A program made the position numbers and the translations under genes. A stretch of 64,000 nucleotides of DNA from Lytechinus pictus. Its lineage: Eukaryota. The DNA is taken from NCBI RefSeq assembly GCF_037042905.1, contig NC_087251.1:27406001-27470000 (forward strand), read 5' to 3'. This document shows, one piece after another, positions 6,205-53,033 of the stretch (positions within the stretch are counted from its first letter, which is position 1; the number at the start of each line of letters is the position of its first letter). The notes beneath the pieces are model-generated. The model saw only the letters and a program-made list of their open reading frames with translations. It ran no database searches and had not been told where the DNA came from.

Positions 6205-6342
6205 ATTGGGTAACTTTGAGAAGGGTGATGACTACAAGAAAACATGGAAAGGAAATGACGATGGCAAGGTCAACTCTCACCAGCCAATGAGAGTGGAGGA
6301 TGATCGTGACGGTATGGCAGGCAACCAAACCATGATTACAAG
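6205..6342 (+). CDS. SNAP25: SNAP-25 internal exon (linker between the two SNARE motifs); upstream exons lie outside the window
   Basis: ttttcag| acceptor and |gtaaat donor, phase 2/2. Encodes LGNFEKGDDYKKTWKGNDDGKVNSHQPMRVEDDRDGMAGNQTMITR, which aligns with the SNAP-25 linker (cf. vertebrate [26 protein letters not shown]). Confidence 0.93.
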
Positions 6343-7030
6343 GTAAATCATCAACATTTTCTATTCCGGGGCCTGTTGCAGCAATCAAAATGAACATAAA
6401 GTTTGATTTTTTTTTTAACCACTCTGAAGCGTACACTTGGCTCTTAGGTTAGATTTGTTTAATTGCATTCAAAGGTAGTACTCTCTGCCACTGGACCCAA
6501 AGTTTTTTTTTTTTTTTAAATAAATGTATAAATTTACCAAACTTTGAGAAATAACATGGTAGGATTGATCATTGTCCAATTCAAATCCAGGTTTAAATTG
6601 CCATGCCATTGATGGCAGAATTATAATCATTGGTAATTTTTATCAACTGGGAGTGGTTCACCACGTAAACCAATGCAAATGAATAAGTACTCCCTCAAAA
6701 CAGACTCTTACTAGCTCTTCTTAAAAAACATCTTATAAATGTTTTTTTTTTAATGATCGCTTCAAGGCTACAGAAGTAATGAAAGATTACCATGAAAATT
6801 CTAGCATCAATTTTTTATACTAAGAAATGGGAGTATGGTCAATACAGAAGTATTTATTTATATAATGTATACATTATAATTGCAAAAAAAGAGAGAAAAT
6901 GGTTTAAATCACAATGTCACATTAAAAGGATTGCTATCATCAACTGACCTAAGCACTAAACCAGGATTTTTAGTCCAGCTTTTTTCTTTTTGAACGGCCA
7001 AGGCTGCTTGATAGCAATTTATCCCAGAAG

Positions 7031-13178: not shown

Positions 13179-13397
13179 TCAGATTTTGGTCCTTTGAGGG
13201 ATACGCTCTGGTATTTAACAGGCAATTGATGCAGACCAAAATAAGCATTTTTAATGTATCGCTATTAAAAACACTGTATGTAGATGATAATGAAAAATAT
13301 ATCTGTGAAGCACTAGAAAATCAGAATATCATTCTATTTGATTAGGTGCAATAGGACAATTAACCGTTTTATCTGTTTGGACGTCATGTTTCTTTAG

Positions 13398-13542
13398 AAT
13401 AACAAACGATGCTCGCGAGGATGAGATGGACGAGAACTTGACCCAGGTAAGCGGCATTGTGGGTAATCTACGTCACATGGCCATCGACATGCAGAGTGAG
13501 ATCGGAGCCCAGAATCAACAGGTGGAACGCATCACCAGTAAG
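13398..13542 (+). CDS. SNAP25: SNAP-25 exon encoding most of the second (Qc) SNARE motif
   Basis: tctttag| acceptor and |gtaaga donor, 145 nt, phase 2/0, in frame with 6205-6342. Encodes [48 protein letters not shown]. Confidence 0.97.
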
Positions 13543-16500
13543 GTAAGATACAAGCTCCGTTATAACTATGCCATCATTCCTAGCTCTCATACTGCATCCT
13601 CCATACGTACTATATTAAGTTGTGGCTTCACAATGAAATTGGTAGGTTTTGGATGCATCTTTGCCCGCAGGCGCACATCAGCAGATATTTTTGCAAATAA
13701 AAACTATTAAAAATTTGTCCAAGTATTGAGAGTCAATGCAATCAAAACAGGCCATACCCCATTCGTTATTGCTATCTTTCATAAAAGCAAGCGCATGTGT
13801 AATTTTTTCACACCATATTTTTTGTTGTTGCTTAATTGATATGCGGCAAAGCAAACATGTTTTAGTTGCAAAATACCATGTGGATTTATTTTTCTTTCCT
13901 GAATTTAAAGCTGGTCGAAAGCATAACATGCACTTTCAAAGCCTTAACAGAAGATTAGGTGGATATATTTAGTTTATTATGACATTATTTATATACTGTC
14001 TCCTAATCTATCATCACCATTTGAAAAGCTCCTTTATATTTTGTCCAGAAATACATTTGCCAAGCATTTCAAAAGCCCTAGGATTCAACATTCCCTTGCT
14101 TTGCACTGAATAGATTATCTTTTATTACTTTTTTGTAATAGTGTGAAAACTAGGTAATGTATATAAATTTTGAAGGGTGTATCATCTGTTTATTTTTCAC
14201 AGTAGATGGTTAATTTACTTTATTAATAATTTCCTGCCAGGCAAATACAATCATCATTTTATGAGTAAAGGTTGCTTCATTATTATTTTTATGTAATGAT
14301 TGTGACCGATTGTATAAAGAAATGTTTGTTTAAAAAATTCTGAATATCTGAAGAAATTGCTAGAAATGTTTTTATCACCCCCCCCCCTTTCCCGATAAAC
14401 CACTGTGAATTATTCTATGTTAGTTGAAATAATGTTGAACTAATGTATGCTATCTAGTGACTCCCATGTCACATATTGATCATATTTCATTCATCAAATA
14501 ATTTTGATTATAAATCATAATCTCATGCACCTCCACTTGCATCACATTGTTTTAATTCACTTTAATTGTCATAATTATTCTTGATTGAATGCTGACATTG
14601 CTTGGAACAGTTGTAGACAGTTAAACATTCTCATTAATTTTTCATATTTGTATACATGTGCTTGAACATACATGCAATACATTCACTTTAAATATCTGTG
14701 TACATTACAATTAAACATTCATATTGCAAATGATCCTGCAGATATTTGGATGCTATTTGACTATTTCTGTTTCCCATTTTAGTTTTCTTATTTTTTGAGA
14801 GATTTATTATCTGAGTAATTGACTATGTCTATTTTAGACAGGTGTAAATCATTCTTTATTGTAGCACTGAAATGAAAAGAATTAGAAAGTAACTGTTTTA
14901 CTCACCATATATGAAAAATAATATAGTATACCATTCTGTATTCTAGTCAGATATAGGCTGATTATGGTTAGAGGGGTCATTTCCAAAAATGATAAGTCAC
15001 TGAATGCTTATCAAAGACCCATGATTTTCAAAAGAAAAAAAAATATATTCCACTTTATTTTTATTTTTTTCATTAGACTTTGGATATTTCCCTTTCCGAG
15101 GTTATTGTATGATTTACAGACACTTTGAATTAAGTGTCCACCTTGAATTTCATCCACACCTATTCCAAATTCCATATATTTCATAGAATATTTTATCAGA
15201 TTGTATGGTATGCAACTGTTGTAAGCAATGCAAATTCTGTTTAGGCTTTGATGTTTTGATTATTTCATATTGCCTGACAATGCACCAGTGACTTAAGCAC
15301 ACTTTTAAGTATCATTTTCTACATCACCCTATGATTGCTTCGCGTTCATATGCATTTTTTAAATTATTAAATATCTAAGTTTGTTATTTGTGTTTAATCT
15401 CTGCTAAAACCATTCAGAGGTTAATGCTTTTTGGATTTTATTTCAAATGTTTTTATCAATTCTTTTTTTTAACTTGTCACCTGAGAAACGTGATGCTTGA
15501 AAAAAATAAAAGTATCTCCAAATTGATCAACAATGTGATAATGCATGGTTAATTTTTTTTGGTTCAGTTAGACTTAACCGATAATTAGTGGATTCATTGA
15601 TAACTGTGTGATTTCTTTGTTTGAAACAGGATTGATAGACATTGTACAATGTTGTTTTTTCTGAAATAAATAATCCAAAAGAAGTGAACTGGTTGTCGTG
15701 TATTGTAATAAAGGATTTTTAATATTTGTAGGGATTTGGTTTATATTTGATACTGATTTTCACAAAATACTATGTCTTTTGAAAAAGCATTTGAGGTGTT
15801 TAGTGAAATCAGCCATGTCAATCCATAGTTATGATTATATATGACCTTCAAACATGACAGAAATGTCACATTGGCCTTCTAACTATTAAGATTAAAAAGA
15901 CTTATTGATGAACATGCATCTCAAATAGCTAGGGTATGAATAATTTTGTGCACATTAGAAAATGTCAACTCAGACGAGAACCTTTAAAAAACTTTGAGAA
16001 ACTTTTGTGACTGACCTGAAAATACAAAATCATTTCTAGTTTAATACATTGTACAGGTCTATCAGCCTGTTGTTTTATAACACCTTATCATGTTTCAAGC
16101 ATGACATCTAAACTTTAGAGAGAGAAAAATGTATGCTTATGTAAAACTGCTAATATTAGAACTTACCACCCACACGGGAGAGAAAAACAAAATAATTTGA
16201 CAATTTCTGTGCGTGCATGATGGATTTTGCGCTATCCCACACACCGACCCAGATGCATTGATCACTTATTCCTTCAAATATCATCTTTGTTTTCCCATGT
16301 GGCTTATTCAAGAAGTTCAGTCTAAGCTTTCCATTGCTACTTCAAAGAAACAGGATGAGAAAGAGCTATGCAGGATTTTGAATTTACACCCACTCACTCC
16401 CCAAAGTGTTTTTGTGCATTTGAAAAATGACATCATATCTATTCCTTGTCCATTACATCAGAGTTAACTAACCATGGAGATAATTTTGAATTTTGTGCAT

Positions 16501-16993
16501 GCCTCTTGATGATAAATCAAATTTCTCATTCAGAATTGTTTTGTTTTCCTGTGAGGGTTAAATTTTATAATGTTGGTTATGGATATCAATTTCACCAAGG
16601 GTACATGTGGTATTTGTAGCATACATATTGTATGGGTCTAACCGTGACCAATTACATATTTAATAATCCATGTCAAGAATTCCATTTCTTAACCATGTTT
16701 TCACCCCTTTTGCATCATGGAGCTATAGCTTTGAATGATCAGTGTTCTATGAAAAATTACACTTTGTCATTCATTGGTTTTTCTTTCTTTCATGATTTTA
16801 ACTCATTCGTTCTTTTTTTCTTTCCATTTGTTTTTTTTATATCTGTTTCTCCCACACCCTACGCTGTACACATGCACACACTCACGCTTGTACATCACAC
16901 GGTTTGCTTGTTAATGTCGTCTTTTCATTCTTTCGTTAACCCATCTTCATCCCCCCCCTCCAAACGTGTTTTTACTTTGTCAAACAACTTTAG

Positions 16994-17056
16994 GGTGACT
17001 CTAACGTGGAGCGCTTGGCTGTAGCTAACAGCCGTGCTAGCAAGCTTCTGAAATAA
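16994..17056 (+). CDS. SNAP25: SNAP-25 alternative terminal exon A (GDSNVERLAVANSRASKLLK*)
   Basis: ctttag| phase-0 acceptor. The peptide aligns without gaps to the SNAP-25 C-terminus (human [22 protein letters not shown]). AATAAA overlaps the stop codon. Confidence 0.85.
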   Translation, partial: GDSNVERLAVANSRASKLLK

Positions 17057-17916
17057 ACCCTTACATGGATTGCTATGCGTGGGGATGGAGTTGCACACCA
17101 CACCCAGTGGAATCATCCAAGATTAATAAAAGATTAACCATCAAAAGCAGTTCATACATTTTTATTTGATTTTAGTTATCCATCAGGAATACTACAACTG
17201 CAATGAAAATAGTTTGGAGTACTTTTTTTCTCTCTTGAGAATGACAACACTTAATTCTAAATTTTCTGTATGTTGTTTATCATGAAAGCAATTTACCGTA
17301 CTTGATTATTTCATGAAAGCAAAGTAGTATTTTGCTGGTATCGTATATTTTCTCAAGCACATCAGTCTGAATTTCCCCATTTTTGCCTTCATGCATATGA
17401 ATGGCTCTTTGATATAAACCTGACACAATACAAACATTTTTAGTTTAATAGGCACAAAACACATCATGCTTGGGATCCATCTATTGAATTGTATAGATCC
17501 TAAATGTTTTCAACCGGAACTATATCAGCTATTAATTTTTAAATCCTCCCATTCAAACTTAAAACTCCAACCAAATATCATTGTGAATAAAGTTAACATT
17601 TTTCCCCTGCAATATTTACCGTGTCATTTTTTTTATTGTCAATGAATGAAAGAGACTTCAGTTCGAGAAGCAAGAACACAAATCAATTCAAATTATGTCG
17701 AGCAGCCTTGTAGAATATATAGGCTTAGTAAGATTCAGAAATGATGTAAAATTGCAAAATAACTGTTTTTACATATTTTTCAAAAGAAACCATACAATTT
17801 CAGTATTCTATATTAATAGGGAATGTACTAGCAATCACCATTTTGGGTATTATTTTGTCGCAGAAGATCATACGCAAATTTAAAGGTTAATAATCCATCC
17901 TATATATATCTCTTCT

Positions 17917-18028
17917 GGGCCCTGTTGCATAAAAGTTACTATTATGGTAACTACCATGGTAACGATGATCATCAGCCAATCAAATCCAAGGATGCATAAA
18001 AATGCTAACTTTTATGCAACACTGGCCC
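17917..18028. mobile_element. Short MITE (related to 56642-56800)
   Basis: TIRs gggccctgttgcataaaagtt / aacttttatgcaacactggccc, with an internal taccatggta motif shared with the 56.7 kb copy. Confidence 0.55.
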
Positions 18029-21000
18029 TGGTCCCCTTCCTGAAGTCATAAATTAGTCAACCACAGCTTGTTATAAAATGGGTGTTACCTTTTGAGAGTC
18101 ATTTGGATGAAGCCATGCCTAGAAGACATCTCTCGATATTATTTTAAGCTCACAGAACAAACTTCCCTGCAATAAACCTTTATAAATTATCATTCCATAT
18201 TACTATTTCTCAAGTATCTGTGTGATTCCCCCATTCATGTACCCGTCTTTGGATAGTGGTTTGATAATTGTTTTATCTCACATAGTTTAGTGCGACCCCT
18301 TTGCTTCTCATATAATCTCATATTTAATTGTATTCTATACCTATTTTATATATCATTTTACAGGACATGTCCTTACTTAATCCCAGTGTTCATTTAATAA
18401 TTGTTCTCCAGTTCTCTGTAATCTGGCAAAATGTAAATCTGTCCTTTTGAAAAACTCTATGCAATTTTCTGAATGTTGAATGGATGTTTGAACATAAAGT
18501 GATGGTAATACTGAAATTGCTCCCCCCATTTTGTCTTTTGATGGCATCTAAAATTGTTGCAGATGTAGTACGGTTTTGGAAAGGATTTCTTAGTTGTTTA
18601 ATCATGGTACAGTTGTGTAAAGTTTGTGACCTTATTCTCAAAATTGGCAAAAAAGTTTTGTATTGTTATTGATTATATTGTAACTGGGTTAAAGTGCTTA
18701 TCCATTTATGAAAAAAAAATTGCCACAAAATTTTCCTTACAAGTCTTTTTGAAAGACAATTGAATATTGAATTTTAGAAGTTATAATTTTTTGATAGAAT
18801 TATCCTTTTGTATATTTTATCAGACAGCAGTCTTTTATTTATTGCATCATTGCGTGGAAAATTCAATCAATTTCTGAATATAATTACCAGATATTGTTGG
18901 TTTTTATATGATCCATCATTCCTCCCACCAATTGTTCTTGAAAACATCATGCAACATTTTATATTAAAAGAAAAAGAAACAGTTTGGCCCTTGTTACAAG
19001 CATTTTACAATTGGAAATAGAGCGCCTGAAAAAATGTAGCAGTTTGATAGAGCATTATGAAAATTTTCACACACAAAATTTGTCATGAATTTGTTCATTG
19101 TGTCCTAGGGTATGGCCACATGAATACCTGATAATTAGCAAAAGTGATGAAGTGAAGTAATTACTCCTGGTTCATTGCTGTTTAGAACCAGGCCAATTTA
19201 TAATCATTCCATTAAGACCAAGTAGGTATTCATGTGGACACATAATGTGTTATCATTAGACAATTCCCTGAAAACTTGGGCTGTGGATGATTTTAATGGG
19301 ATATGGTGTCCATAATGCCAAAATTCCCCCAAAAACGAAATTTGATGGAATCACTTCAGGATCTATTACTTGCATGGTCCTAATGAATGCCTAACTTGGT
19401 CTATGTACATATTAAAGTGTAATATATTTATAGGCCTATATGTATAACATTCCACATCAGATTCATATAGACCAATATTTAAACTCCTAAACCTTTCCAT
19501 GGCAAAACCTTGCTATACCCTCCCACTCACTTACACATCTAACTTGATATGATTCATCCTTCCTACTAGCATTTTGTCCGACACCTACTCCATGCATCAG
19601 ACCCACCATATTATTTTTGTCATAGCTGTTAGAGCCATCCACATTCTTTTATTATTCATACCAATTTTTATGAACCTAATTCAGACTTTACCAATCCTTT
19701 CTCTCCATATATCAAATTTCTCACCTCCCATGCATTGCCCCAAGCTAAAAGACATACCCAATCACCTCATCGTTTCATCTTCTTCAAGGGTCTATATATC
19801 GTCCTCATTTCCTTCCTGTTTTCCTCCTTCAAAACAAAGATCCTCATCAAGTTATCCCCCATCCTTTGCCTATTTTAAGAATGGCTCTGCATAATATTTA
19901 GCAAATTCAATAATATTGGCCTGGATTTGGTTCAAACGATTTAACCCAACCGGGGATAGAAGAAAAAAAATAGAGTGAATATCTGCCCACGCATTGAAGG
20001 AGGAAAGCATACAAACAAACTTTGATACAGGGTCATATGAAATGGGGGATTTGTGAATACAAGCAGGGAACTGCTGTCAAGTTTTTCCTCATGAGAAATG
20101 TCCTATTTTGGGAAAACAAGTTATCTATTTGACGGAAGTGATTTGGTGAGAAGCTATATAATGTAGGTGAAAACATTGGAATGCTTACTTCTTAAAAAAA
20201 AGGACAAATTTACATTCTGTTATTGGCTTGAAAGCAATATCAGTTTTGGTTGACATTTTCCTCAGAGAAGTTACTTTACAAAGATTATTATTAAGTTCGT
20301 GATAGAGAATATCATTATCCTCCAAAAGCTTTAACAGTCTTTTATATTATCTGAAAGGAAATGAGATAAAGTTTATCATTGAATGAACCTTCTCGGGACT
20401 CAGAGAGTTGCTCTTAGTATATTGATTGGACATGCTTCCTATTTTCCCCCTTTCGGGTTGTGTTTTTAGGAGTACCATAAAGTGAATGATTATTGGTTAA
20501 CGTAGGATAGCATTATTAGCATACATGAGTGTGAAAATAACTCTTGTGCACAAGACCAGTTTTAAGTACACTGCCATGAATAGGAAGGAACAAACTATAG
20601 CTAGAAACGCTTTTCCTCAAACTTGCCATGATTGTGTATGTATGTTCCATCGTGCTTGCCACGCTTCGTGTGTATCGTCATCCTCCACCTGACAGATGGC
20701 CACTCAGTCTCATGCGACCATAGGGCCAATTATTGGTAAACACCGCCCTCTCTCTCCCCCTCTCCCTCTCCATGTGTATCGTCACCACACCGCAAGCACC
20801 ATGCCTGATATATATTTTTATCCTTTGCCAAAGAAGCGCTTGTACTCAAGCACTGACATTATGGCCTATGATGAAAGCTAAAAGGGCATCGACTCATATT
20901 ACAGTGCTAATTGTTAGCTTTCCTTCAAGGAGGTGCTAACAGTCTGGCATCTTGTTCTTGAAATGTTGGCTATACCACTCTTTTCGGTTTTTTAGAAGTC

Positions 21001-21249
21001 ATTTTTTTTTGGGAAGTTGTCACAAGGGAGTCAACTCCATGGAGTCAATTCTTTGTTGATGTCACCACAAAATCTATGCAATGCAAGTTAAGATTTGGGT
21101 TTGTTCAAGGCTTTGCTTCCTTTATTATCTGGAGTCATGCTGGCCCTGGTCAGACCTGAATTTACTCTTTGCCTGACCAAAACACTTTCACATCCACATT
21201 TTGGCTGGCCAAGAAAGTCTTGATGAAAAAATGATTTCAGTGAATTCTC

Positions 21250-21600
21250 CCCTGATATTAACTTCTTTCATATCGAGATAGGGAATGAAATTCTATGAAC
21301 AGTCACATTCTACCCCCAAATCCCCATTCCACTGCTGTTGATGGCAAGATGTAAAATATTTGCCATCTTCTTTCCTTTCTAATAATAAGAAATAACCCTG
21401 TGACCTGCTCTGGACTGGGTCTGTAATGTTATCACCCAAATTTCCATTAAGTTTTATCTCTTCTATGTACCTTGTGTGAAATCTGAATGAGCATAGTCTA
21501 TAGATTATGTCCCTTGGTCTACTACTTGTATCATCCATTTGCCCTTTAGTATGATCTCTTTCTATGTTATGTCCTTTGAGTATGATATCTCTCCATTTAC
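21250..21600 (-). mobile_element. Possible highly degraded L1/Tx1-type ORF1 remnant
   Basis: Minus-strand translation IERDHTKG...SRPRDIIYRL resembles the LINE ORF1 motif IERAHR...RPRxII. Weak. Confidence 0.3.
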
Positions 21601-22214
21601 CTCTTTTTAAGTTCTGAATAAGCATAGTCTTGAACAATATCATGAATGTATTTGTTGCCCGTAACTCACGTTCACAATGCTTGCATGGATTTCTTGTTAT
21701 TGCATCTACTTTTCACCAATTACTTTGATATTCATGTCAGTTACATTTCAAGTTTATTTCAATTGCTTAGATGCTCTTATGACATTATATGCATGGTAAA
21801 TCTTTTTTATCTGTCAATAATAATCATAATACTAACCACCAAGTCAAGATAATGCCAGCCATAATTACTCAAAATGTTATGTTCTTGTATATTCATTCCA
21901 GTGCAGAAACAATGCTGCAAGTGTAATGCTGTGTAATGATATTTAAACTAACCTTTTCCTTCTTTTAAAGAGAGAACAGTGCGCAGTGTTCATGTTGAAA
22001 TCGTTACCTTTATGTCTATTCATTATGGAATGATTATGTTTGTTTGCCAAACTGATACTTGTGTAACATGCAATATATACTCTTATGTTAACCCTCATGT
22101 TGCTAACTACTTTGTCTACCAATCAAGATGTGCCGTCCCACCAAATAATGTCATGTTCTGTCTTTTTTCCCCTTTCTCTCCTTTTTTACCCTCTGATCTC
22201 ACCCACTCACATAC

Positions 22215-22380
22215 AATCCACACCTTCTTCACATATAACCCCGCCCTCCTGACATATAACCACGCCTTCTTCACATCATTACGCCCTCATAACATAACCA
22301 CGCCTTCGTCACTCATAACCCTGCCCTCCTAACACACCACGCCTTCTTCATACTTAACCCATCATAACCCTACCCCTCAT
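22215..22380 (+). repeat. Degenerate ~20-bp C/A-rich tandem repeat inside the AG-free tract upstream of terminal exon B
   Basis: Repeated cataaccacgccttcttca / ataaccccgccctcct units. Confidence 0.6.
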
Positions 22381-22487
22381 TCTTTATCCATCACTCCCAT
22401 GATGACTGCTCACTTTGCCCCGCCCACCCACCTCCCCGACCTATGACTTCTGACCTTTACCTGTCATGTGACTTCCCCTGTCTGCAG

Positions 22488-22556
22488 GCACGCCTAAATG
22501 ACACCCGCATTGATATCGCGAACAAGCGTGCTACCACAATTCTGCAGAAGAATTGA
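22488..22556 (+). CDS. SNAP25: SNAP-25 alternative terminal exon B (ARLNDTRIDIANKRATTILQKN*)
   Basis: tgtctgcag| phase-0 acceptor. Gap-free alignment to the SNAP-25 C-terminus (TRIDIANKRAT vs human [11 protein letters not shown]). Confidence 0.9.
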   Translation, partial: ARLNDTRIDIANKRATTILQKN

Positions 22557-25500
22557 AAACATTACCACTATGCACTGTCACATGACTTGATCGATCATTG
22601 TCACCTGTTCTCCTACATACACGTATATCTTGTATGTACCAGTCACATGTGCAGTGGTATGTTACCCTTTATGACATGAACATTCATAATCATTCATTCA
22701 TTGTCACTCATACTTTGAACATATTCAGATAAGAGCTATGATAGGTCAGATTCTATGATCATGTTTTTTATGATTAATATGTAAAGTTAGGCAAGGAATA
22801 ATGACAAAACTTTTTTCCTCAACTGAAAATGGGCATGAATTACCAGCTGCATTCAGTTTACAATGTGCAATATTCAAGATATAATATGTTGGGCTGTGCA
22901 TCTAAAAACAATGTGACGACAATTGATCTACATTCCGCTGGTGAATAATATTACATTGATATTAAGAAAAAAACCTGCAATATGTTTGTAAGCTAAAGAA
23001 AAGTAGAAAAAACAGTTAAATTTTTTTTAAATTTAAAACAGTAATAAAGTTAAGCTTGTAATTATGTTATCCTGTCAAATTATTGATTTTTTTTAAATGA
23101 TTAGTGGAATATGAATAAAAAAATCAGGGTATTGTACAACTAGGGTTTGGTTGTCTTCATTCTTTTTAGAATCCGTTTTTGGGGCAAAAAAATGATAATG
23201 AGAAATGCTGTCATTCTTTTTGTTTGCTCAGTGTGTATCTTCTGAATGTAATTACCTGTGTTGGTGCAGCAAAATGCAATATTTATGGAAAATTCCAGCT
23301 GAGAGTTTAACAGTGTAGAATAGGCTATTATATTTATCAATTTGAAGCATGTAGGATTCCGAGGCTGAGCTTTAGTATTAATTGCTATTATCCTTGTGTA
23401 GTTAGCTCAGGAAAGATATAGATATTGTGTATAAATGACTGTCTGCAAAATTTTATTGATTAATTTGCCTAGAAACATATATGTATGATATAATCCTGAA
23501 CTATCTGTTTGTAAATAGGTATATGTAATTGTGTATCCTATATCAATAACTATATTATATGCATATAATATACAATGTGTGTTTGCTTTATATTCATAGC
23601 ATCAACAGATATATATTCTATATTATGAAGTTATGTGCCAATTTCAGTTGGTAGAGGTTTTTTTCAAAGTACTAGGACTTGTGTGTCACATACTAAGTGA
23701 AAAAATGTTTTTATAACGTTTTATTTTTAAGTATGTGTCTTAACTGAATTCTTGCAGGAGAAAATTATTTCTGAAGTTTTAATTAGGATTTTGGGGTTCT
23801 TTCATAGCTTAAAATCATATTTATGATTTGATTCTTAGTACAATATGAATCAAGTTGGATTGATATTTCCACAACTTGTACCAAAAAACAAAAAATAAAA
23901 ATACAGTGCCTGAAGGGCTGGACTTTTGCTTTCAAATTGTAGTGTAAGGTTCTAAAGTAGCTACTTGAAAATCTTTTAAAAGATATGAGTATTTCTAATT
24001 TATTTCAGAAATTTTGTTGTTGTTATATGTTTGGACTCTTTAATGATTGAGCTGTTTGTGAGAGAGAAATGTTTATTGCCAATTTTCTTGTAACTTTGTC
24101 TTGTCAGAATAAATTGGAGATTAAACATTTGGTTAATAGCAAAATTCTTGCACTTGACCTATAATCATTAGTAGATTTAGAATTAAGGAATGTAAATAAT
24201 TCATGTGTGAATTTGCTACATCTGAGTACTATTCAGACAGACTATTTATTTTCCCTGTTTGAAGTAATGCAACAACATCAATTTGTACATAGATTCAATG
24301 AATGAATTTTCTTTCATGAAAGCTCGATTGTGATGTTGCGACATGATTATTTTATTTAATTTGCAATTTTTCAGCATCCTGAGTCTTATTGTACGTTCAC
24401 TGATAATTATTATTAAGTAGTGTTAATTTTGATTAAAATCGTGAATAATTTAGTGTTCTTCCTTGTTTAAATTGATACTGTTTAGCATTTTGTTTGTACT
24501 TTGCTAAATCTTGAATACCACAAAATAAAATACAAAGATTTAAAAGAACTTAAAAGCAAGTCAAAAATAAAAGTAATGAAAACTAAATATTTTGTTTTTA
24601 AATTTGACTTTTGTGCTAATTGTTGAGTGTAGGATAAAGGATGGGGTGTTGTGTGAATTTGTTGGGTCATAGGCTAATGGTTTAAAGAAAGATCAATCCC
24701 AAATTTTATACACAGTGAAACATGGTGTCAAAACTACACCACCGGTGTCTTGAGAACTACACCAGTGTTACATTTAACACACTAGCGTTATAAAATTCTT
24801 TTGTTATTGTATTTGGTATTATGTTCAATTTTTTAAGGTGTGGCGATATTACTCTATCCAACACTGTCCACTTTTCAGAGCGCATAAACTATATCAGAAG
24901 CTAAAAAGTTTTAGCTAGCATTTTAGTTTGATGACAAATTGTCTCATTTGGTGGCAGTGGAACATTTTGACCAGACAAAGGTTTAGAAGAGTGAGCCATT
25001 ATTGTCCCTCTTAATTTGTTTTTCCTGATCAGATCATTGCAAAGAGATTCATGTAGTGATATTTCATTTCCTAAAACACAGAATATTTTGAAATGATAAA
25101 AAATGGCAATGAAGATGCTGTGATATAAATGTGTTCTATACTTTCCTTTGCCTATTTTCTTTTTGATTCTCTGTTAGTGTTTTTTTTCCAAACTAAAATG
25201 TTTTGTATCAAATCAGTATAGAAATCTATAATTTCTTCCTTATTTGATTTTCTTTGAAACTGAGGACTCTTATACATATTCTATGCTTTCTACCGAGTGA
25301 GAAAAAAAATAACTTAACAAAAAATAACCCAACTTAACCAACTTTTTAAACATGGTGAATAGCTTGAACACATCTATGTTGTGAATGGAATGTTTTTTAA
25401 AACCATACCTATTTCATCATGGTTTTATATACCTATCAGAATTTAACAAATGTCCATTCTAATGTCATTGGACAATTCTAACCAGTATTAGAATTGGCAT

Positions 25501-28415
25501 TTTTAAAATCCTGATGTGTAAGTAAAGCTCAATGTTTGATCCAAGCAAACATTCCTAGGGTAAAAAATGTAGATTAAATGTAGCCTGTGGTATTAAAGCA
25601 AATCCCTTTAATTAGGGAGAAATGTTTAAGCCCTCTTCAACGCAGACAAAAGGAAATGCATTTTATCTTCTTGGAGCCCTGAGAATGACGGATAAGTGGA
25701 ACAACTTTACAATATTATCAGTGTTTGATGTTGTAGAAATAGTTTGCTACAGTTTAATCTCACTTATTTTGTTGATTAATGTTTATCTTATTCTTTCTAT
25801 CTTTAGTATGCTCTTTTAAAATATATCCTATGATTTCCTCAACTTTTAGCTTTCTTGTGTTAGTCTATGTCTGGTAGATTTATTTTTTTTAAGAAACTGA
25901 GTGAGTGTAAAAAAACGCTTTGAAAGTTTGTTTGAATAGTATTCAAAATGTTGCCAAAGTTTGTAATTTAATTATGTATTGTTATTAGTCTGATGACATA
26001 TATAATAAAAAATATAACAATACATATGCCAATCTGTCACTTGGCTGTAAATAATCAGTTTGATTTCTGTCAGGAAGCTTGGGGATGTTGCAGTTTACAC
26101 CTATTCATCAAAAAGTGACTTCATCACAGGCATTTCCAGTATTAAATAAAGATTTGATAGCACCAAAAATTAATTTGTCAACGCTTGACATGATGAAACT
26201 TGTTGTATTTACAATCGAAACAAGTTCAAGAAAAACCTGAAAGTGAAGGTATTTTAAAAATGTTTTGAAGTTTGGGTTCATCTATGTGAGCATTCACTCA
26301 TACTCAATCCATTTCCTAGCATGAAATATTTGTTACTTTTTCTGTGAAAAGTTATTTGCATGCAAGCAATATACATGTAAGCCTATTGTCCAAGCAGGAG
26401 CTCATTACTTGTATTGATGTACTATTTTGTGTGTAAGTTAGATCATTGTTTGAATATGTTTTGTCTTGGTTATCTGTAAAGGAATTTCTTTTTTTATCAA
26501 GTGTATCCGTGAACTGTCGTACTTCACTGCACTTTGCAAGTGCTGACAAAATTTAAAGCCATCAGCCAGATGAAGAAATCATGTGCATGTTTACGATCAC
26601 GACCATCAACCCAAACTTTAATACCCCAAGTTTGTACACCGCAGCTTGCCATTCTAATGAGTCTATATTCTGTTATCTTGTCAAATGTCTTTCGCTGATG
26701 AGCTTTCGAGAGCTCAGCACGTCAGAGCGTTTCCGAACTTCAAGCGATTAGTGTGGCATGAAAACCACACCATGTTTCTTTGAGAAGTTTTGCCAAAGCA
26801 TTATTAAAGACAATTTAACAGTTGATTGATAGATCTACTGAAGACCTAGAAAGATTGAACCCTTTCAAGACAAGATCCATTTTTGAGAGTTCATTTGTTC
26901 ACACTTTGTTCTTCAAATTGGCAATGATAAATTTTGTCTTGTTGCTGCGTTATGTAGATGCAATATCTCTTGAAATAAGTTACATGTCTATAGCAAAAAT
27001 TACAATACTTTGAATACTCCAAATTTATTTGAAATTATGGTACCAATATTATAAAAATCAACACAGTCATAGAACAATAACCAATCTTCTATATAAGAGT
27101 AGAAGCTGTTTCCCATTTCCTCTTGTTCCAGACTTTATTATTATTGGGGAGGGGGGGGGGGTCTTTCATTCCATATTTATGTTATCAAACAAGAAATAAT
27201 GGTTAATAAAGGGTTAATATCATCATTTGAATATTTTCCATCCCCTTATGAACCTGTCGACAATCTAATTCTACAATTCACTTAGATTTTGTGTAAAAAC
27301 CTCCCAAGTTTCAGTAGACAATTGATTAGTTTGATAAAACAATGTTTCCCTTAACCTGTATGTGTCTTCATGTTATGTTTGTTCCTTTGAATGTCTGTTC
27401 GTAAATGAATCTTTTTTTTTAATCTTTCTTTAAATCTTTTCCACTCTTCGTTATTGAAAAGATATTATATACCTGTATAAGACAACTACTTTAGGGTGTG
27501 TTTTTTTTTCATTTTAGATCTGAAAATGTCAGTATATAGGTTATTTTATTAATTTGATTGCATTTTTATTTACATTTTTATGGGCTTGTAATTGCTATTC
27601 TGATAAATTTCTGTCACCTACATGACTTAATCACTAAATGTCATGCAAAATGAGCTTAATTATCTCAGTTTGATATTAAAAATACACAGGGAGGGAAATA
27701 TACTGATGAATTAACGTCTTGACTTAACAAATTTTTCCAGGAATTTAAACTTTCTCTCGTCTATACCTGTATCTAGTTTGTTTCATGTATAGTATGATTA
27801 CTCTTGTTAATAGAGTAGTATTCATATTGTGAACATATTTTTGTTTAAAGTTTTTAGAAAAGTTTTTACTTCTCTAATTCCTCCATATTGCTCTCCATAT
27901 TTTCACATTTGACTTTGATTGGTCAAAATTCTTTTCTCTCAAAATTATATTTCTTTTCTTATCTTCTTTTATGTTTCATTTTTGTTTGATCTGTTTGATA
28001 TTGTTCTTTACATAATTTATTTTTATGTACAAAGTTCTTGAGTGGAATTAGATGATAATATTTAACATTTTTTATATTGTCGCAATTTGAAAAGTTGATC
28101 AATTCAACTTTTTCTGGAAACTGTGTAAAAAATGAAAAAAAAAATTGTAGAATAACACATCTGGCAAGCCCCTTTTATGAAAAAACAATGCTCCCTTGAA
28201 ACATTCATACAATCCTTTTGTTTGCTATCTTTTGCTGAATGTATTAAAAATTATTTCCACTTTCGGAAATTGTCTCCTTCATATGATTAATTTTGCCTAA
28301 TTTATTCCCGTTTGCATTTCCAACTGATTACTTAAATTATTGGAAATAGCTGTCATAATGCATGATTAACTCTTGTCTCCCTTTTTTTCTTGGTCATCTT
28401 TCATTTTTTATCCAG

Positions 28416-28484
28416 GCGGAATCCAACGAGCAGAGGATAACCAGCGCCGACAAGAGAGCGAAAAACATCCTTAGAAAGCAGTAA
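28416..28484 (+). CDS. SNAP25: SNAP-25 distal terminal exon C (AESNEQRITSADKRAKNILRKQ*)
   Basis: Strong polypyrimidine tract and tatccag| phase-0 acceptor. Gap-free alignment to the SNAP-25 C-terminus, followed by a long AT-rich putative 3'UTR. Confidence 0.92.
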   Translation, partial: AESNEQRITSADKRAKNILRKQ

Positions 28485-29102
28485 GAGGTCACCTGACTGA
28501 TCACATGATTGAACATTGGAAGTGTGAATGTGTCACCTGACTTGCCAGGGCTTGTCCAGAATGGCAGCCGTCTTAACAAAGACTCGATGAGAGCGGATGA
28601 ACGCAGCAATATCTCTTTTGCAACAAGAAAATAGATGAATAAATTAATAATAAAAACTCGATAGATGCAAACAATAACATAGCTATTTTTTGGAAATGGA
28701 ACTTTGTTTTAAGGAAAGGTTGAGATTTGAAAGGGTTGTGTATCAACTGGCATGGTGATTATTTATTTTTCAAGATACTTGCCTGTGTTAGTTGAATATC
28801 ATTGAATATGATTGTTGTTTGCTTGTAACAAGGGACGTGTTGCTTAAATTTCAGGTACTGCCTCCCCCCCTCTTTTTCTCTGTAACGTCCTCCCATGTAT
28901 TTATCTGTATCTCGCTAATTTTCTGTCTCTTCCTCTATATCTGTGTCATTTATATTTTTTGCTATCTTCTGCCTTGCTTTTCTGTCTCTCATTTACACCA
29001 TCTTTTCTTTCACTTAGACTTTCTTGCTCTCTCTCTCTCTCTTCTATCTGTCTTTTTCCTTTTCTATGTCCCTTCCCCCGAATACTCGACTCTTTTCTTT
29101 AT

Positions 29103-29361
29103 GGTCCGAATTCTGAACTCTGGTCTAAATTAAAGCCTAACAGTACAAATCCACTTTATGAACTAATTTGACACTCAAATTGTACATAATTGTCTTGGAA
29201 TGATAACTGAAGTAGTTTTCTTCATTATGAAAGCAAAAGGAAACGAAATAGTAAACAAGAAATATACAATATAAACAGAATTTTTGAAATTTTGGTTCCC
29301 CATAATTTTAGCACAGAGTTAGACTGTGGTCTAATTTAAACCTGACTTCAGAATACAGTCC
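29103..29361. mobile_element. MITE (same family as 9937-10204)
   Basis: TIRs ggtccgaattctgaactctggt / aaacctgacttcagaatacagtcc. Confidence 0.55.
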
Positions 29362-31018
29362 TTTGTCTCTATCTTACGTTGCTCTATCTGTGGCTTTCAG
29401 ATTTTCTTCTCTGAATGTCTTTCTACCTTTCCCACTCTGTCTCTACTACCCTCCCCCCCCCCCCATTTATAATGTCTATATGCTCTTTTAGATTGTCAGT
29501 CTAAATGTATTCAATATTGTACGTTGATGATATTTAGCAACAAGGTGTGACAGAGATCTATCTATTCTTGGTTCAATAAGCAGAAGATTTGCTTCCATTG
29601 TTCAATATACATAGATATATAAGGCAAGTATATGGATACCATGTCCTTGCTCTCTTTCCTCGAGTCAACCTAGTTGGTTTTATGATATGGCATTGTTGCT
29701 GTATAATGCATTTGATTTATTGGCTCAGAATAAAATAGGTATGTAAAAAAAAACAGCTTCAATTATAATGCTTAGATAATCGACTTTGTATGTTGATGTC
29801 ACATTATTAATGTTGTACCTGTAGTTTTGTCCGTGTAGGTTGTAATCATTCAATCTGCTATGAGATAAGCTGTACTGTAGATTAATTGCCCTCAAAAACT
29901 ATAGAAACCTACCATTCTTTACTAAAAATTGAGGTGGGATAGTATATGAGTCATATCACATTTTCAATCTTTCATTTTGATCCAAGTTTGTTCTATTTTG
30001 TAATTTTAATATTATGTAACATATATAGTTAAACACAATAAGTAGGGTATCATATTGTTTGATTGTTTCATAAAATTTTTTTATGAATAACAAAGTCAAG
30101 AATTTTTGCAAACTTATCCATTCAAATGGCATATATTGATATTGATTGGCTTTTTAGATTTTTTTTTCAATTTTGAATTAGATATTTCCATGTTCTATAA
30201 GTGTTATGTTTTGTTTTGTTTTATAAAATCTAAAATTAATGAACAAGAGAGCCCACAAAAACCAAGAAGTGTGTGACATTGGTTTAGTTGTAATCTTTTT
30301 AAGGTGGGTTTGACAAAGAACCACTCCACTTATTTCTGATTTGAACAAAATATAATCGAATCAGTTTGTTTCTTATAAAATTTACTTGGTGACATCAAAG
30401 ATTTGCAGAGAAAAATCTACTGCCATTTGGTGCTTGTACAGTTTTTTTCCATTTTGTTTTATAAAACAAAATTATATAATTTTACTCTTTTTGACTGTAC
30501 AATTTACATGAATGCATATGGAAATAATTGCAGCTAGATTTCAGGGAAATCCTTATTTCAAACTCTCAGTTGACTACCGATAGTATCATTACAAGTCCTT
30601 TCTACTCTTCTATTTTTAGATGTAAGAATGGATATAATTTTAATCATATTAAGGACCAGCATAATTAAATATATATGGTGAGTTGGTTCTTAGGATATGT
30701 TTCCATACTAAATTGCTATTGAACCCAAAAGTCTTCTGAGTCCTTGTATAGTCTTGACTTATTAAACACAATTTAATTTCAGTATGAGACACATTTTCAA
30801 TAGACCAAAGTCCATGTTTCTCTTGCAAAGGTTCAAAAAGAATAATCCTGTTTAAAATAGAGTATTCAGTAGTCAAAGTTTGAGGAGAGGAGCTAACCAA
30901 TGATTCTGTTCTATACAGAGCCCTCATTTAACTTCCTATCTGAAGGACAGGGTGGTAATCACTAGCTCAACAGAGCTTTAGCACAACCTAGGTTTCATTT
31001 CCCCACCCGACCACAGTG

Positions 31019-31142
31019 TGTTGTATTACTTAAAAAGTTACAATTAACCTGTTGACATCTGGAACCGGGTTATACCTGTACAAAGTCTATGGGAATGACA
31101 GCATTCAGTATTCAACGGGTTAATTGTAACTTTGATGCAACA
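31019..31142. repeat. Short inverted repeat, probable MITE remnant
   Basis: aaagttacaattaacctgttga pairs with tcaacgggttaattgtaacttt. Confidence 0.5.
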
Positions 31143-33970
31143 AGGTCCAATGTTTGGGAATAGAATGGGTATGGTTGTTCATGTCATGGTAATATCTTCT
31201 GTTGATTCTGTAGGCAGTATCAACAAGTAGAAGAAAAGAAAAACAGCAGGATGTTACTCACTTTTGAACCATTTTGATATTTTGTACCACAATCAGAAGA
31301 TTCTCAATGCATAAAAAAATGAACTCAAATCAACATCCCATAGACTGATAAAGAAGATAACATTTCATTGAATCTCAATCTATTTGTTTGGTAGCCGAGT
31401 CATCAAACAACACTGTATCTCAAAATCACTGTTTTTTTATATTATTTTTTATAAAAGATTCCCAATTTGGTCGGCCAACAAGTGCATTTGACAAAATAAC
31501 AACAATAAATAGATTTATAGTATATATTATAACTCCAACATAAGCTTGGATGGAGGAGAGAAATTGCCCATTGATATTCTTGCATGAACCTCTCCCTTTG
31601 TCACAACATGGAGAAGGACTACCTGCTCAGATTTTTGCACAATAGAATAAGTGACCTGGTAGTATAATATTCATATGAAAAGGACTGTTATGGTACATAT
31701 GCTATTTCATATTTATTTAGACAAGGTCTTCCTATTGGACCGTGTTTAAGTGAATTTGGTGAGTCATGTTCGGAGTCAGTTTATTTATCTTTTTGAAAAT
31801 GTCTATGGTCAGCTATTATAATGATTCGGAAGAACAGTTTATATGGCATTCTGTATAATGCAGTAATTTGATGCAAGACTAATACTGAAGCAGTAGTTTC
31901 CAATTTATTATTTGAAATACAGATAAATCACTCTTGAGGGTTGAACAATTTTAGAACTGTTCAAAAGAAATTATGAAAGTAATTTCTTTATATCATGTGT
32001 GCCTGTGTGCTATCCCTGGTCTCTTAACCAAGTAATTACTCAAACACTAATTCACAAGGATTTAGATTAAGTCCATACAGATTTGAATTTAAAGCATCAA
32101 AAGTTGAATTCAAATCCTTTGAGATTTAGAAATGAATATTTAGAATTCAACTTAAATTGTTTGACTGTTTGCTATTCACAGCTGCTCTGGATTTAATTTA
32201 AATCCTTGTAGTTTTGAAGGTAGTTGGGCATTACTGATGAAAGAAAACTTTTATGTTGAACATTCGTATGAAAATTCAAATGTAATGTGATGAATATTGT
32301 ATGATATGAACATTTTATTGAAATTAATACTTTTGACTTATTGGAAGTTAAGTTCTTTATGTAGCTAGAGGAAATTAAGTTTGTTTTCAGGAAGTTGTTT
32401 GTAGTTGCTGTCGTATATGTGCACCATTTGCATTAGGAAAAATCGTCACATGATTTTTTTTTTTTCACGTTTGTTGATAATTTTAATATTCTTATAACGT
32501 GATATCTCTGTAATATACGATGATCTGCCAAATTGCAAACATGTTTTTAAGCTCTGTGGACTTATAGGACAATATTGACTGTAATTCCTTGATATTTTAT
32601 TGAGAAATAGAAGTTAAGATTCAGCATCTACATTTGCATGACTAACGTAAATATGCAGTATACGATGAATGTGGAGTATACTAGTAATTATAACATCTAA
32701 AGCCTCTCTTGTAAACTGCACAATAACATTATTGTTTGAATATGCAAATGTATCATTCCACTTTCTTGAAATGGCCATCTAAAACATCTTTCTTCTTGTA
32801 ATGTATTGCTTAAAGAAAAATCAGTGCCATTTTTCCCCTCCATAATTTTGTATTTTTATATAATTCAAGAGCAAGATAATTCAAGCCCTATATAGCGCAG
32901 TCACATTTCGCCTAGGATGGCCATACTCCAAGTCGAAAGCGGCCGTTTTTACCATCTTTGTACCAGCTTCCTACGTGTGGTTCGTATAGAAATCTGCTGT
33001 TTTCGACTCACCGTGCAGACACCGCAGGGGAAATGTGACTGTCACATTAGATTAATAAATTGTTTATAAAAATGAATTCCTTATTTTTAGATAAATTTAC
33101 CAAAAGAATCTGCTTGTGAATTGTACTAGTAATTTGTTTAAATTTTTTATAAAACATTATTTGTATTTTTTTACATTGTAGCTTGTTAATAATTCATATT
33201 TATTTGTAACCTAACTTTCATCTCATTTCCTTTCCAGTATATACATTTTAGACTCATGTTATTATTTAAAAAGAAACACCCATACCATGTGTTATTACAA
33301 GTATTTTCCCTTCTTTTCATTTATTAGCTTTTGCAAAAAACACATGTTTTTAAACAACCAGAAAAAAAATCAATTAATAGATTTGATTCTTTGTTTTGAC
33401 TTTCTAGTTGAAAAAGATGTCAACTTTTGTTCTTGATTTATTTCAAAATGTTTCATGTAGAGAGATTAAATAAGCAGTGTTGTTCTACATGTAAAAATGT
33501 GCATTGGTGATAACATTTGTATAGAAGAAGGTTATACATAAGATATCTATATATATATTTCATTTGAATTGTGCATATTGTGAATATATATTATACTATG
33601 AAAATGCAATCAATAATTTTGCATTCCCTTAAAAAGTGTTATGGAATTTATTTCTTGAAAATAAATCTGATTAAGCTAATAAGCTTGTACTTAAAGACTT
33701 CTTGCAAACACTTTCGAGTTGTTTTTGTATTGTGAACACTAGTTTAAGTTAGATATGTATATGATTGTTGAAGTGAACTGGAATATGAAATGATTGCAAC
33801 ATAATTTGCTCGACTGTACCCCCCAAAAAAAAATGAGGGACAGCATATTCAGTTTTCGTAACACTTCGTAGGGGGAGAGTGATGATGAATACAAAACATG
33901 AGCAAATTGTGTAACCCCTGATAAAAAAAATAATATTCAGAGTGATTATTATTTTAAATAATAATATATG

Positions 33971-46894: not shown

Positions 46895-46928
46895 GTGGGT
46901 AGGCCAACATTAATCCCCTATACCCTCC

Positions 46929-47098
46929 CAGTGGCGTACCTAGGATTTTCCAGGATTTTCGTCAGGGGGGGGGGGGGGGCAAAAAGGTCTTTCAAGCTCG
47001 TCAGGGGGGGGGAGGCAAGGATACATGCATGGGTGGTGGCTCGTCAGGGGGGGGGGGCAGACTGCCCCTCTGCCCCCCCCCCCGTAGGTACGCTAGTG
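46929..47098. mobile_element. hAT-like MITE (short copy of the 39130-39551 family)
   Basis: Same TIRs; perfect 8-bp TSD taccctcc. Confidence 0.85.
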
Positions 47099-52985: not shown

Positions 52986-53033
52986 CTGCAGCTTCCACAA
53001 TAACATTCCAAAGGTTGGTGGGCGAACTTCTTA

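What the first reader, a model, noticed from the sequence alone, without database searches (positions are those of the whole stretch)
13398..28484. SNAP-25 with three tandemly duplicated alternative last exons that swap the C-terminal end of the SNARE zipper
Seen: the phase-0 donor at 13542 can join any of three phase-0 acceptors, each followed by an intact 20-22 codon exon and stop. A is GDSNVERLAVANSRASKLLK, B is ARLNDTRIDIANKRATTILQKN, C is AESNEQRITSADKRAKNILRKQ. They diverge strongly in DNA yet all keep N4, R7, A11, R14, A15, L19 and the heptad-layer positions +3 to +8 (G/A, N, L/I, A, A, L/I), a pattern expected from purifying selection. Known: vertebrate SNAP-25 diversifies through duplicated exon 5a/5b near the palmitoylated cysteines, and C-terminal zippering drives the final fusion step. 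Inference: this lineage evolved a different exon-duplication system that tunes the membrane-proximal fusion layers, possibly for neurons versus egg cortical granules or sperm acrosome. I do not know of a description of this arrangement but cannot search. None of the three exons is in the ORF track.
Basis: partly seen in the sequence, partly recalled or inferred. Interest (0 to 1): 0.92.

Follow-up and report, generated by a model that had tools for sequence, protein, structure and literature searches.

The report
Three alternative SNAP-25 tail exons
A sea urchin SNAP-25 gene ends in three interchangeable final exons that give this membrane-fusion protein three different tails; the arrangement is real, is already in public gene models, and is far older than sea urchins.

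Summary
The window is the 3' part of a SNAP-25 gene; NCBI names the exactly matching proteins Lytechinus pictus SNAP-25-like. One phase-0 donor (13542) faces three AG-preceded terminal exons: A at 16994, B at 22488 and C at 28416. Each encodes 20-22 residues and a stop. A profile scan finds only these three copies. Contigs of one public run carry GT..AG joints 13542>16994 and 13542>22488. Three raw RNA runs cover C but not A or B.

The claim that this lineage invented the system is wrong. All three ends are already in RefSeq models. The three types recur in five echinoderm classes and in hemichordates. Same-type peptides from different classes have median identity 0.70; different types within one species have 0.43. 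Molluscs also have two or three alternative ends and beetles two. A metagenome contig shows two such exons in tandem. One-to-one matching across phyla holds only for type A.

Seven literature searches found no description. I read this as an old alternative-last-exon system. It keeps the core positions of the C-terminal SNARE helix and changes its surface and tail. Tissue roles are untested. It is a new member of a known kind, of moderate interest.

The parts
6205..6343 (+). Upstream coding exon of the SNAP-25 gene. It encodes the linker (K)LGNFEKGDDYKKTWKGNDDGKVNSHQPMRVEDDRDGMAGNQTMIT(R).
   Evidence: tblastn of RefSeq isoforms. AG at 6203-6204 and GT at 6344 in the sequence. A run X5 contig that ends on 13396-13543 continues upstream with the last bases of this exon (tables 7 and 8).
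13398..13542 (+). Penultimate coding exon: the central part of the second SNARE motif. It holds the shared phase-0 donor (GT at 13543).
   Evidence: It is 100% identical to the protein NCBI names L. pictus SNAP-25-like isoform X2. It is covered in RNA runs X19-X21 and by a 493-base contig of X5.
16994..17056 (+). Alternative last exon A, coding part: GDSNVERLAVANSRASKLLK plus TAA.
   Evidence: Identical to the end of RefSeq L. pictus X3/X4 and L. variegatus X4. Joint 13542>16994 with GT..AG ends in run X5, depth 66.3, 1 contig.
17125..17130 (+). AATAAA hexamer 69 bases after the stop of exon A; candidate poly(A) signal.
   Evidence: The 3' end itself is not shown.
22488..22556 (+). Alternative last exon B, coding part: ARLNDTRIDIANKRATTILQKN plus TGA.
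   Evidence: Identical to the end of RefSeq L. pictus X1/X2. Joint 13542>22488 with GT..AG ends in run X5, depth 44.3, 1 contig.
23043..23048 (+). First AATAAA hexamer after exon B, 487 bases after the stop; candidate poly(A) signal.
   Evidence: The 3' end itself is not shown.
28416..28484 (+). Alternative last exon C, coding part: AESNEQRITSADKRAKNILRKQ plus TAA.
   Evidence: Identical to the end of L. variegatus X1/X2. 18 of 22 residues match the S. purpuratus cDNA-derived proteins. The bin 28276-28899 is covered in 3 of 3 raw RNA runs with the first mate on the minus strand. No joint to 28416 was listed.
28638..28654 (+). Two AATAAA hexamers (28638, 28649) about 154 bases after the stop of exon C; candidate proximal poly(A) signals.
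   Evidence: RNA depth continues at 30772-32000 in X19-X21, so a longer 3' UTR is possible.

Best explanation
This is the 3' end of a sea urchin SNAP-25 gene. The last coding exon exists in three tandem, anciently duplicated copies: A, B and C, spaced 5.5 and 5.9 kb apart. Each copy has its own acceptor, stop codon and downstream poly(A) hexamer. They are therefore alternative terminal exons, and one transcript can use only one of them.

The single donor at 13542 is joined to A, B or C. The result is three SNAP-25 proteins, identical up to ...ERITSK, that differ in the last 20-22 residues of the second SNARE helix. The residues that face the core of the four-helix bundle are kept: positions 1, 4, 8, 11, 15 and 18/19 are G/A, N, L/I, A, A and L/I. 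The outward-facing residues and the extreme tail differ.

I infer that the isoforms zipper onto the same partner SNAREs. I infer that they differ in how the membrane-proximal end is regulated: surface charge, a phosphorylatable serine, tail contacts, and possibly zippering energy. The three different 3' UTRs would add separate control of each mRNA.

Shown: the exons, their conservation, the A and B joints, and RNA coverage of C.
Inferred: the poly(A) sites, choice by competition between a proximal acceptor plus cleavage site and the distal ones (C has the strongest pyrimidine tract), and all functional differences.

The system dates at least to the common ancestor of echinoderms and hemichordates.
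For: Anatomy. There are only three copies in the window.

Gene identity: PF00835 at E 1e-20 in all three isoforms. Solved vertebrate SNAP-25 chains match at E 1e-67, and the last exon aligns directly after ...EK.

Use in RNA: run X5 has GT..AG joints 13542>16994 (depth 66.3) and 13542>22488 (depth 44.3). It also has a contig that joins exon 6205-6343 to 13398. Raw RNA runs X19-X21 cover the penultimate exon bin (0.95, 0.29, 0.91) and the C bin (0.45, 1.09, 1.98) in one orientation.

Gene models: the A, B and C ends are in RefSeq isoforms of Lytechinus.

Age and selection: 15 ambulacrarian species were read.
- All three types were found in 7 of 15. L. variegatus counts here through P0125, a protein it shares with L. 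pictus.
- Two types were found in 4 of 15.
- Only C was found in 4 of 15.
Identity for the same type in different classes has median 0.70 (n=146). Identity for different types in the same species has median 0.43 (n=25). The nearest peptide in another species is of the same type in 33 of 33 cases. It scores 52-96, against 21-55 for the best paralog in the same species. Hemichordate ends find the same type in echinoderms in 7 of 7 cases. Third codon positions are near random between the copies, 3-9 of 20.

Terminal-exon character: there is no GTRAGT donor within 1 kb after any stop. AATAAA lies 69, 487 and 154 bases after the stops.

Surface differences (alignments): where the solved vertebrate chain has ...kaDSnk..., A has DS, B has RL and C has ES.
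Against: The A and B joints come from one run only. That run is kept as contigs, its kind is recorded as a guess ('RNA?'), and it carries another species label than X19-X21.

In 3 of 3 raw RNA runs A and B have essentially no depth (0.03 or less). No joint to C was listed in any of the 4 runs laid; few reads were sampled, about 6 in 100 of each run.

No 3' end was observed, so the poly(A) sites are hexamer matches only.

The RefSeq isoforms are automatic models. The types were assigned by a rule read from the sequences themselves, so the 33 of 33 is partly circular.

No functional difference between the isoforms was tested. A 20-22-residue peptide gives little statistical power.
Confidence: 0.8

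Rival explanations
1. The coding differences are nearly neutral. On this reading the three terminal exons matter because they attach three different 3' UTRs, which control mRNA stability, localisation or translation in different cell types. The peptides are kept only well enough to preserve the helix.
For: Each exon has its own downstream poly(A) hexamer and unrelated downstream sequence. The core positions are the ones most strictly kept.
Against: Non-core positions are also type-specific across more than one phylum. V5 and the KLLK end mark A from sea urchin to acorn worm. ADKRAK marks C in 11 of 11 distinct ambulacrarian C peptides. Selection for a generic helix would not predict that.
Confidence: 0.12
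2. A and B are decaying or accidental duplicates, used only as splicing noise. C is the only functional end.
For: C is the end in both S. purpuratus cDNA-derived records. It is the only end covered in the three raw RNA runs. It has the strongest acceptor tract.
Against: Type A ends are intact in 9 of the 15 ambulacrarian species read, and type B ends in 9 of 15. L. variegatus is counted for A through the shared protein P0125. Same-type identity to the L. pictus exon is 13-17 of 20 for A. For B it is 12-21 of 21-22; the extra second Ptychodera end scores 9 of 21. The joint depths of 66 and 44 are not small beside the depth of 216 on the shared exon in X5, although contig depth is a poor measure of level.
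Confidence: 0.03
3. This is the first reader's reading: a lineage-specific innovation of sea urchins, or of echinoderms, with no counterpart elsewhere.
For: None found here beyond the fact that vertebrate SNAP-25 is known for a different alternative exon.
Against: Hemichordates carry the A, B and C types; Ptychodera flava has four ends. Oysters and a chiton have three ends, two gastropods two, and three beetles two. Metagenome contig L033 has two such exons in tandem behind one donor.
Confidence: 0.02
4. The alternative ends of molluscs, beetles and ambulacrarians arose by separate duplications of the same exon. On this reading the last exon is a recurrent target, and only the ambulacrarian triple is a single inherited system.
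For: The two beetle ends are both A-like and close to each other. In the profile test the mollusc and annelid Leu-4 / ILRNQ-type ends go to the B profile in 8 of 10 cases, to C in 1 and tie in 1. By pairwise score the same 10 all point to hemichordate C. So the correspondence is unstable.
Against: The oyster end GGSNVERIIEANKRANLLLKD and the ambulacrarian A ends are reciprocal best matches. They also agree in the profile test, with margins of 5.8-7.1 bits in 3 of 3 oyster species. Hemichordate C and the lophotrochozoan ILRNQ type share Leu at position 4, the 22-residue length and the ILR.Q end. In L033 the A-like exon comes first and the ILRNQ type second, as A precedes C here.
Confidence: 0.5

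Closest known systems
RefSeq (Gnomon) SNAP-25-like isoform models of Lytechinus pictus, L. variegatus and other echinoderms and hemichordates
   Same: They are the same exons. L. pictus X3/X4 end in A and X1/X2 in B. L. variegatus X1/X2 end in C, X3 in B and X4 in A.
   Different: They are automatic models without any description. I found no paper that discusses them: searches, and passages read.
Vertebrate SNAP-25 exon 5a/5b (mutually exclusive tandem exons)
   Same: It is the same gene family. A tandem exon duplication gives alternative residues in a SNARE motif. I saw the abstract of PMC2581893 in the listing.
   Different: That pair is internal and lies at the end of the first SNARE motif and the cysteine cluster (position recalled). 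Here the last exon of the second SNARE motif exists in three copies, each with its own stop and 3' UTR. PMC2581893 has none of the words invertebrate, urchin, Ciona, amphioxus, 'exon 8' or 'last exon' in its text.
Vertebrate SNAP-25 versus SNAP-23 (separate genes)
   Same: They provide alternative versions of the same two-helix SNARE, with different C-terminal ends, for different secretory settings. The SNAP-23 ends retrieved here and the tunicate ends fit the ambulacrarian B profile best: 3 of 3 and 4 of 4.
   Different: The diversity comes from gene duplication, not from alternative exons of one gene. That the two have different functions is recalled, not tested here.
Tandem exon duplication-derived substitutions in syntaxin genes STX2 and STX3
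   Same: They are SNARE genes with duplicated alternative exons that have equivalents outside vertebrates. A passage of PMC8373072 says equivalents of the STX2 and STX3 events were found in Daphnia magna.
   Different: They concern another SNARE and another region. The same paper lists SNAP25 only among human events.

Membership tests
SNAP-25 family (Qbc SNARE) | The SNAP-25 family Pfam domain scores above the curated cut-off. | tested here: met
   PF00835 scores 74-74.5 bits against a cut-off of 25, E 1e-20, in the A, B and C isoforms.
SNAP-25 family (Qbc SNARE) | Full-length similarity to solved SNAP-25, including the second SNARE motif up to its C-terminal end. | tested here: met
   phmmer to chain 3j96_M gives E 1.4e-67, 5.2e-68 and 4.4e-67. 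The last exon aligns to the chain's final 19 residues with 10, 12 and 9 identities for A, B and C.
SNAP-25 family (Qbc SNARE) | A cysteine cluster lies between the two SNARE motifs. | tested here: met
   CCGICVCPWKK is present in the isoforms. It is encoded 4.4 kb upstream of the window at C7:27401555-27401674.
Alternative last exons derived from tandem exon duplication | Paralogous exons lie in tandem on one strand. | tested here: met
   There are three copies on the + strand at 16994, 22488 and 28416. Pairwise peptide identity is 7/20, 7/20 and 11/22.
Alternative last exons derived from tandem exon duplication | All copies are compatible in phase with one upstream donor and have acceptor signals. 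| tested here: met
   The donor at 13542 is phase 0. Each copy has AG plus a pyrimidine tract and an open frame from its first base.
Alternative last exons derived from tandem exon duplication | Each copy is joined to the shared donor in RNA. | tested here: inconclusive
   The A and B joints are seen in 1 of 4 runs laid (X5, contigs). The C joint is listed in none. C is supported by RNA depth in 3 of 3 raw runs, by cDNA-derived S. purpuratus records and by L. variegatus models.
Alternative last exons derived from tandem exon duplication | Each copy ends a transcript at its own cleavage and poly(A) site. | tested here: inconclusive
   AATAAA hexamers lie 69, 487 and 154 bases after the stops, and there is no GTRAGT donor within 1 kb. 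No read ends were observed (table 6: none).
Vertebrate-type SNAP-25 exon 5a/5b system | The alternative exons encode the end of the first SNARE motif and the cysteine cluster. | tested here: not met
   The alternative exons here encode the last 20-22 residues of the protein. The exon that encodes the cysteine cluster was found once at E below 0.5, in the 34.5 kb between the alternative first exon and the window start.

The most novel reading that the evidence does not exclude
The common ancestor of protostomes and deuterostomes may already have had at least two alternative last exons in SNAP-25: an A-like end (...KLLK) and an IL-type end. Ambulacrarians and molluscs would have kept or expanded the set. 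Other lineages would each have kept a different single exon: B-like in tunicates and in vertebrate SNAP-23/25, A-like in insects and flatworms. On that view the well-studied vertebrate C-terminus is only one of the ancestral isoforms of the fusion machine's final zipper.
Probability: 0.35. Interest if true: 0.75.

Novelty: new member of a known kind. Interest (0 to 1): 0.5.

Why it matters
The last 20-odd residues of SNAP-25 form the membrane-proximal end of the SNARE bundle. That is the part whose closure is thought to trigger fusion (recalled from the field's literature). Here nature supplies three versions of exactly this segment. They have been held apart for at least the age of the echinoderm-hemichordate split.

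That gives a ready-made set of natural variants for asking what the surface and tail of the C-terminal layers do. L. pictus is used for genetics (recalled), and its eggs offer a classical exocytosis assay.

It also shows that animals without the vertebrate SNAP-25/SNAP-23 gene pair can diversify this SNARE by exon choice. The same gene has a second pair of alternative exons in the first SNARE motif, so the isoforms may be combinatorial.

For annotation the practical point is smaller, because the exons are already in RefSeq models.

Tried and rejected
RNA holders. The run index listed no holder on record as RNA for 13350-23300 ('no RNA holder listed'). I therefore laid three raw RNA runs with the same species label, plus one contig run.

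Junction to C. It was not listed in any of the 4 runs. Both run tools are capped at one call, so I could not try other runs or a lower likeness threshold.

Earlier notes of this scan: none for this genome.

Literature. I ran seven searches:
- SNAP-25 / alternative splicing / sea urchin.
- SNAP25 / alternative last exon / invertebrate.
- SNAP-25 / splice variants / mollusc / C-terminal.
- SNAP-25 / echinoderm / isoforms / exon.
- SNAP-25 / alternative / last exon / SNARE motif / isoforms.
- SNAP-25 / Strongylocentrotus / cortical granule / cDNA.
- SNAP25 / bilaterian / alternative splicing / mutually exclusive.
I judged these from listings and abstract starts only. None describes alternative last exons of SNAP-25. 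Passages of PMC2581893 and PMC8373072 add nothing on invertebrate SNAP-25. The original S. purpuratus cloning papers are not in the searchable library, so I did not see them.

A fourth copy like the extra Ptychodera end: not found in the window.

One-to-one matching of all three types between ambulacrarians and lophotrochozoans: the pairwise scores and the type profiles disagree for two of the three types, so I do not claim it.

Other genes in the window. Seven of the 10 open frames of 130 aa or more went to Pfam. They gave only low-complexity matches below or near the cut-offs.

Not tried: a complex prediction or a fold, because SNAP-25 with its partners is a textbook pair and a pass would not change my reading. 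dN/dS could not be computed, because no DNA of the orthologous exons from named species was available.

Full report
WHAT IS THERE

The window is C7:27406001-27470000 of an 812-Mb assembly. It holds the 3' part of a SNAP-25 gene. The 48 residues encoded by 13399-13542 are 100% identical to a protein that NCBI names Lytechinus pictus synaptosomal-associated protein 25-like isoform X2.

tblastn of ten isoforms finds only these coding pieces in the window:
- a linker exon at 6205-6343 (boundaries read);
- the penultimate exon at 13398-13542;
- three last-exon copies at 16994, 22488 and 28416.

Each copy follows an AG and a pyrimidine-rich tract, with fractions of 0.68, 0.74 and 0.87. No GTRAGT donor follows within 1 kb of any stop. 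AATAAA hexamers lie 69, 487 and 154 bases after the stops.

A profile of last-exon peptides was run over all 2913 open pieces of 15 aa or more in six frames. It hits these three at E 1e-9 to 2e-10 and nothing else below E 1.2. The profile contains the window's own peptides.

The copies are old. Pairwise DNA identity is 27-33 of 60, with third codon positions at 3-9 of 20. Peptide identity is 7/20, 7/20 and 11/22.

IS IT USED?

I laid four public runs on 13300-32000.

Run X5 is kept as contigs, its kind is a guess, and it has another species label. It carries:
- a joint 13540>16992, read by the tool as GT..AG with the cut two bases further, that is 13542>16994, at depth 66.3;
- a joint 13540>22486, that is 13542>22488, at depth 44.3;
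- a 493-base contig over 13396-13543 at depth 215.9. Its upstream continuation reads the last bases of exon 6205-6343.
So this run holds spliced RNA of the gene with both A and B ends.

The three raw, stranded RNA runs of the window's species label were each sampled at about 6 in 100. They cover the penultimate exon bin (0.95, 0.29, 0.91) and the bin with exon C (0.45, 1.09, 1.98). A and B have 0.03 or less.

No joint to C reached the listing threshold in any run. C therefore rests on three things: that coverage, the two cDNA-derived S. purpuratus records (one named 'ovarian') that end in the C type, and L. variegatus models X1/X2, whose end is identical to exon C. The different pattern in X5 and in X19-X21 fits regulated choice, but sample types are hidden and the species labels differ.

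IT IS ALREADY ANNOTATED AND IT IS OLD

RefSeq models of L. pictus end in A (X3, X4) and B (X1, X2). Those of L. variegatus end in A, B and C.

I read the cluster members of 15 ambulacrarian species:
- All three types in 7 of 15: L. pictus (C from the window), L. variegatus, Diadema antillarum, Asterias rubens, Patiria miniata, Acanthaster planci, and the acorn worm Ptychodera flava, which has a fourth end.
- Two types in 4 of 15: Amphiura A+C, Antedon A+C, Apostichopus B+C, Saccoglossus B+C.
- Only C in 4 of 15: S. purpuratus, D. setosum, A. amurensis, Glandiceps.
These are only the members I read, so absence means little.

Same-type ends from different classes have median identity 0.70 (n=146, range 0.43-0.90). 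Different types within one species have 0.43 (n=25, range 0.29-0.57). Every peptide's best match in another species is of its own type (33 of 33). It scores 52-96, against 21-55 for the best paralog at home. The types were assigned from the sequences, so the count is partly circular, but the score gap is not. Hemichordate ends find their own type in echinoderms in 7 of 7 cases. The triple therefore predates the echinoderm-hemichordate split.

BEYOND AMBULACRARIA

RefSeq models behind one identical upstream sequence show the following.
- Three ends in Ostrea edulis and in the chiton Liolophura sinensis.
- Two ends in Crassostrea virginica, Magallana gigas, M. angulata, Saccostrea cucullata, S. 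echinata, Pomacea canaliculata and Babylonia areolata.
- Two ends in the beetles Anoplophora, Tribolium castaneum and Diorhabda.
- Only one kind of end among the members I read for Ciona, nematodes, flukes, rotifers and scallops.

One scan of metagenome contigs gave 80 loci. Of these, 55 had at least one last-exon-like frame and 5 had two in tandem. In L033, whose penultimate exon is 90% identical to a gastropod protein, one GT donor is followed in turn by:
- TTTTAG + SESNEERIKEANTRAAKLLKS*;
- 1.4 kb later, TTGCAG + GTSLTDRVDTANKRANKILRNQ*.

Whether these systems are one inheritance is open.
- The oyster end GGSNVERIIEANKRANLLLKD and ambulacrarian A are reciprocal best matches. They also agree in a profile test, with margins of 5.8-7.1 bits in 3 of 3 oyster species.
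- Insects (4 of 4), flatworms (2 of 2) and Capitella also fit A.
- Tunicates (4 of 4), SNAP-23 of three vertebrates (3 of 3) and scallops (2 of 2) fit B.
- The lophotrochozoan Leu-4 / ILRNQ type points to hemichordate C by pairwise score in 10 of 10 cases, with margins of 1-5. By profile it goes to B in 8, to C in 1, and ties in 1.
- The beetle pair looks like a young, separate duplication.
I therefore rate a single bilaterian origin of at least two ends at about 0.35, and recurrent duplication at about 0.5.

HOW IT MOST LIKELY WORKS

Alignment to solved vertebrate SNAP-25 puts the exon boundary right after ...EK. The last exon covers the final stretch of the second SNARE helix. By my recollection of the layer table this is layers +3 to +8.

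The outward positions differ in a type-specific, conserved way. Where the solved chain has D-S at exon positions 2-3, A has D-S, B has R-L and C has E-S. I recall these vertebrate residues as an acidic contact for the calcium sensor and a kinase site; I did not check that here. C has D at position 12, in ADKRAK, in 11 of 11 distinct ambulacrarian C peptides. The tails differ: KLLK, ILQKN and ILRKQ. B is closest to the vertebrate chain (12 of 19), then A (10) and C (9).

My reading is one core zipper with three regulatory surfaces and three 3' UTRs, chosen by competition between proximal and distal terminal exons. The functional part is inference.

NOVELTY

The exons are in public gene models, so the structure itself is not new. 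Seven searches and two paper look-ups found no description. The kind of event, a tandem exon duplication giving alternative SNARE residues, is known from SNAP-25 exon 5 and from STX2/STX3. I file it as a new member of a known kind. Interest is moderate because of its age, its position in the fusion-triggering end of the helix, and its recurrence across phyla.

Noticed in passing
Outside the window, same contig: C7:27392108-27392155 and C7:27393677-27393724 (13.9 and 12.3 kb before window base 1): The same gene has a second tandem pair of alternative 48-base exons, in the first SNARE motif. They encode SQDMGIKTLVMLDEQG and SKEAGIKTLVLLDEQG. Both versions are in RefSeq isoforms, and the same two versions recur in starfish and acorn worm models. 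With alternative first exons as well, the isoforms may be combinatorial.
   Followed up: partly
window 21679-22515: An 840-base contig of run X5 (depth 21.7) runs unspliced from the intron into exon B. It has 18 other letters and 15 gap letters. It could be unspliced RNA, an alternative start or DNA carry-over.
   Followed up: no
window 17917-17990 and 29196-29360: All four runs show very high depth on both strands here, with loose ends on both sides and many variant letters. These look like short dispersed repeats that are transcribed elsewhere in the genome. They are not part of the gene's exons.
   Followed up: no
window 28586: A 3-base deletion in the presumed 3' UTR of exon C appears in 5 of 5 reads of run X21. 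It is probably a polymorphism.
   Followed up: no
L023, L026, L076 (metagenome loci): An unidentified animal lineage, only about 70% identical to any named protein in hand, also has two tandem last-exon copies. An example pair is SGTVDMRIDQANKRTEKLLK followed by GASNESRVKLANDRAGRLLK.
   Followed up: partly
window 46778-47881 and 52501-53143: These are the longest open frames in the rest of the window. They give only low-complexity matches: Extensin-like at 29 bits against a cut-off of 105, and pentapeptide repeats near the cut-off. They are probably simple repeats, not genes.
   Followed up: partly
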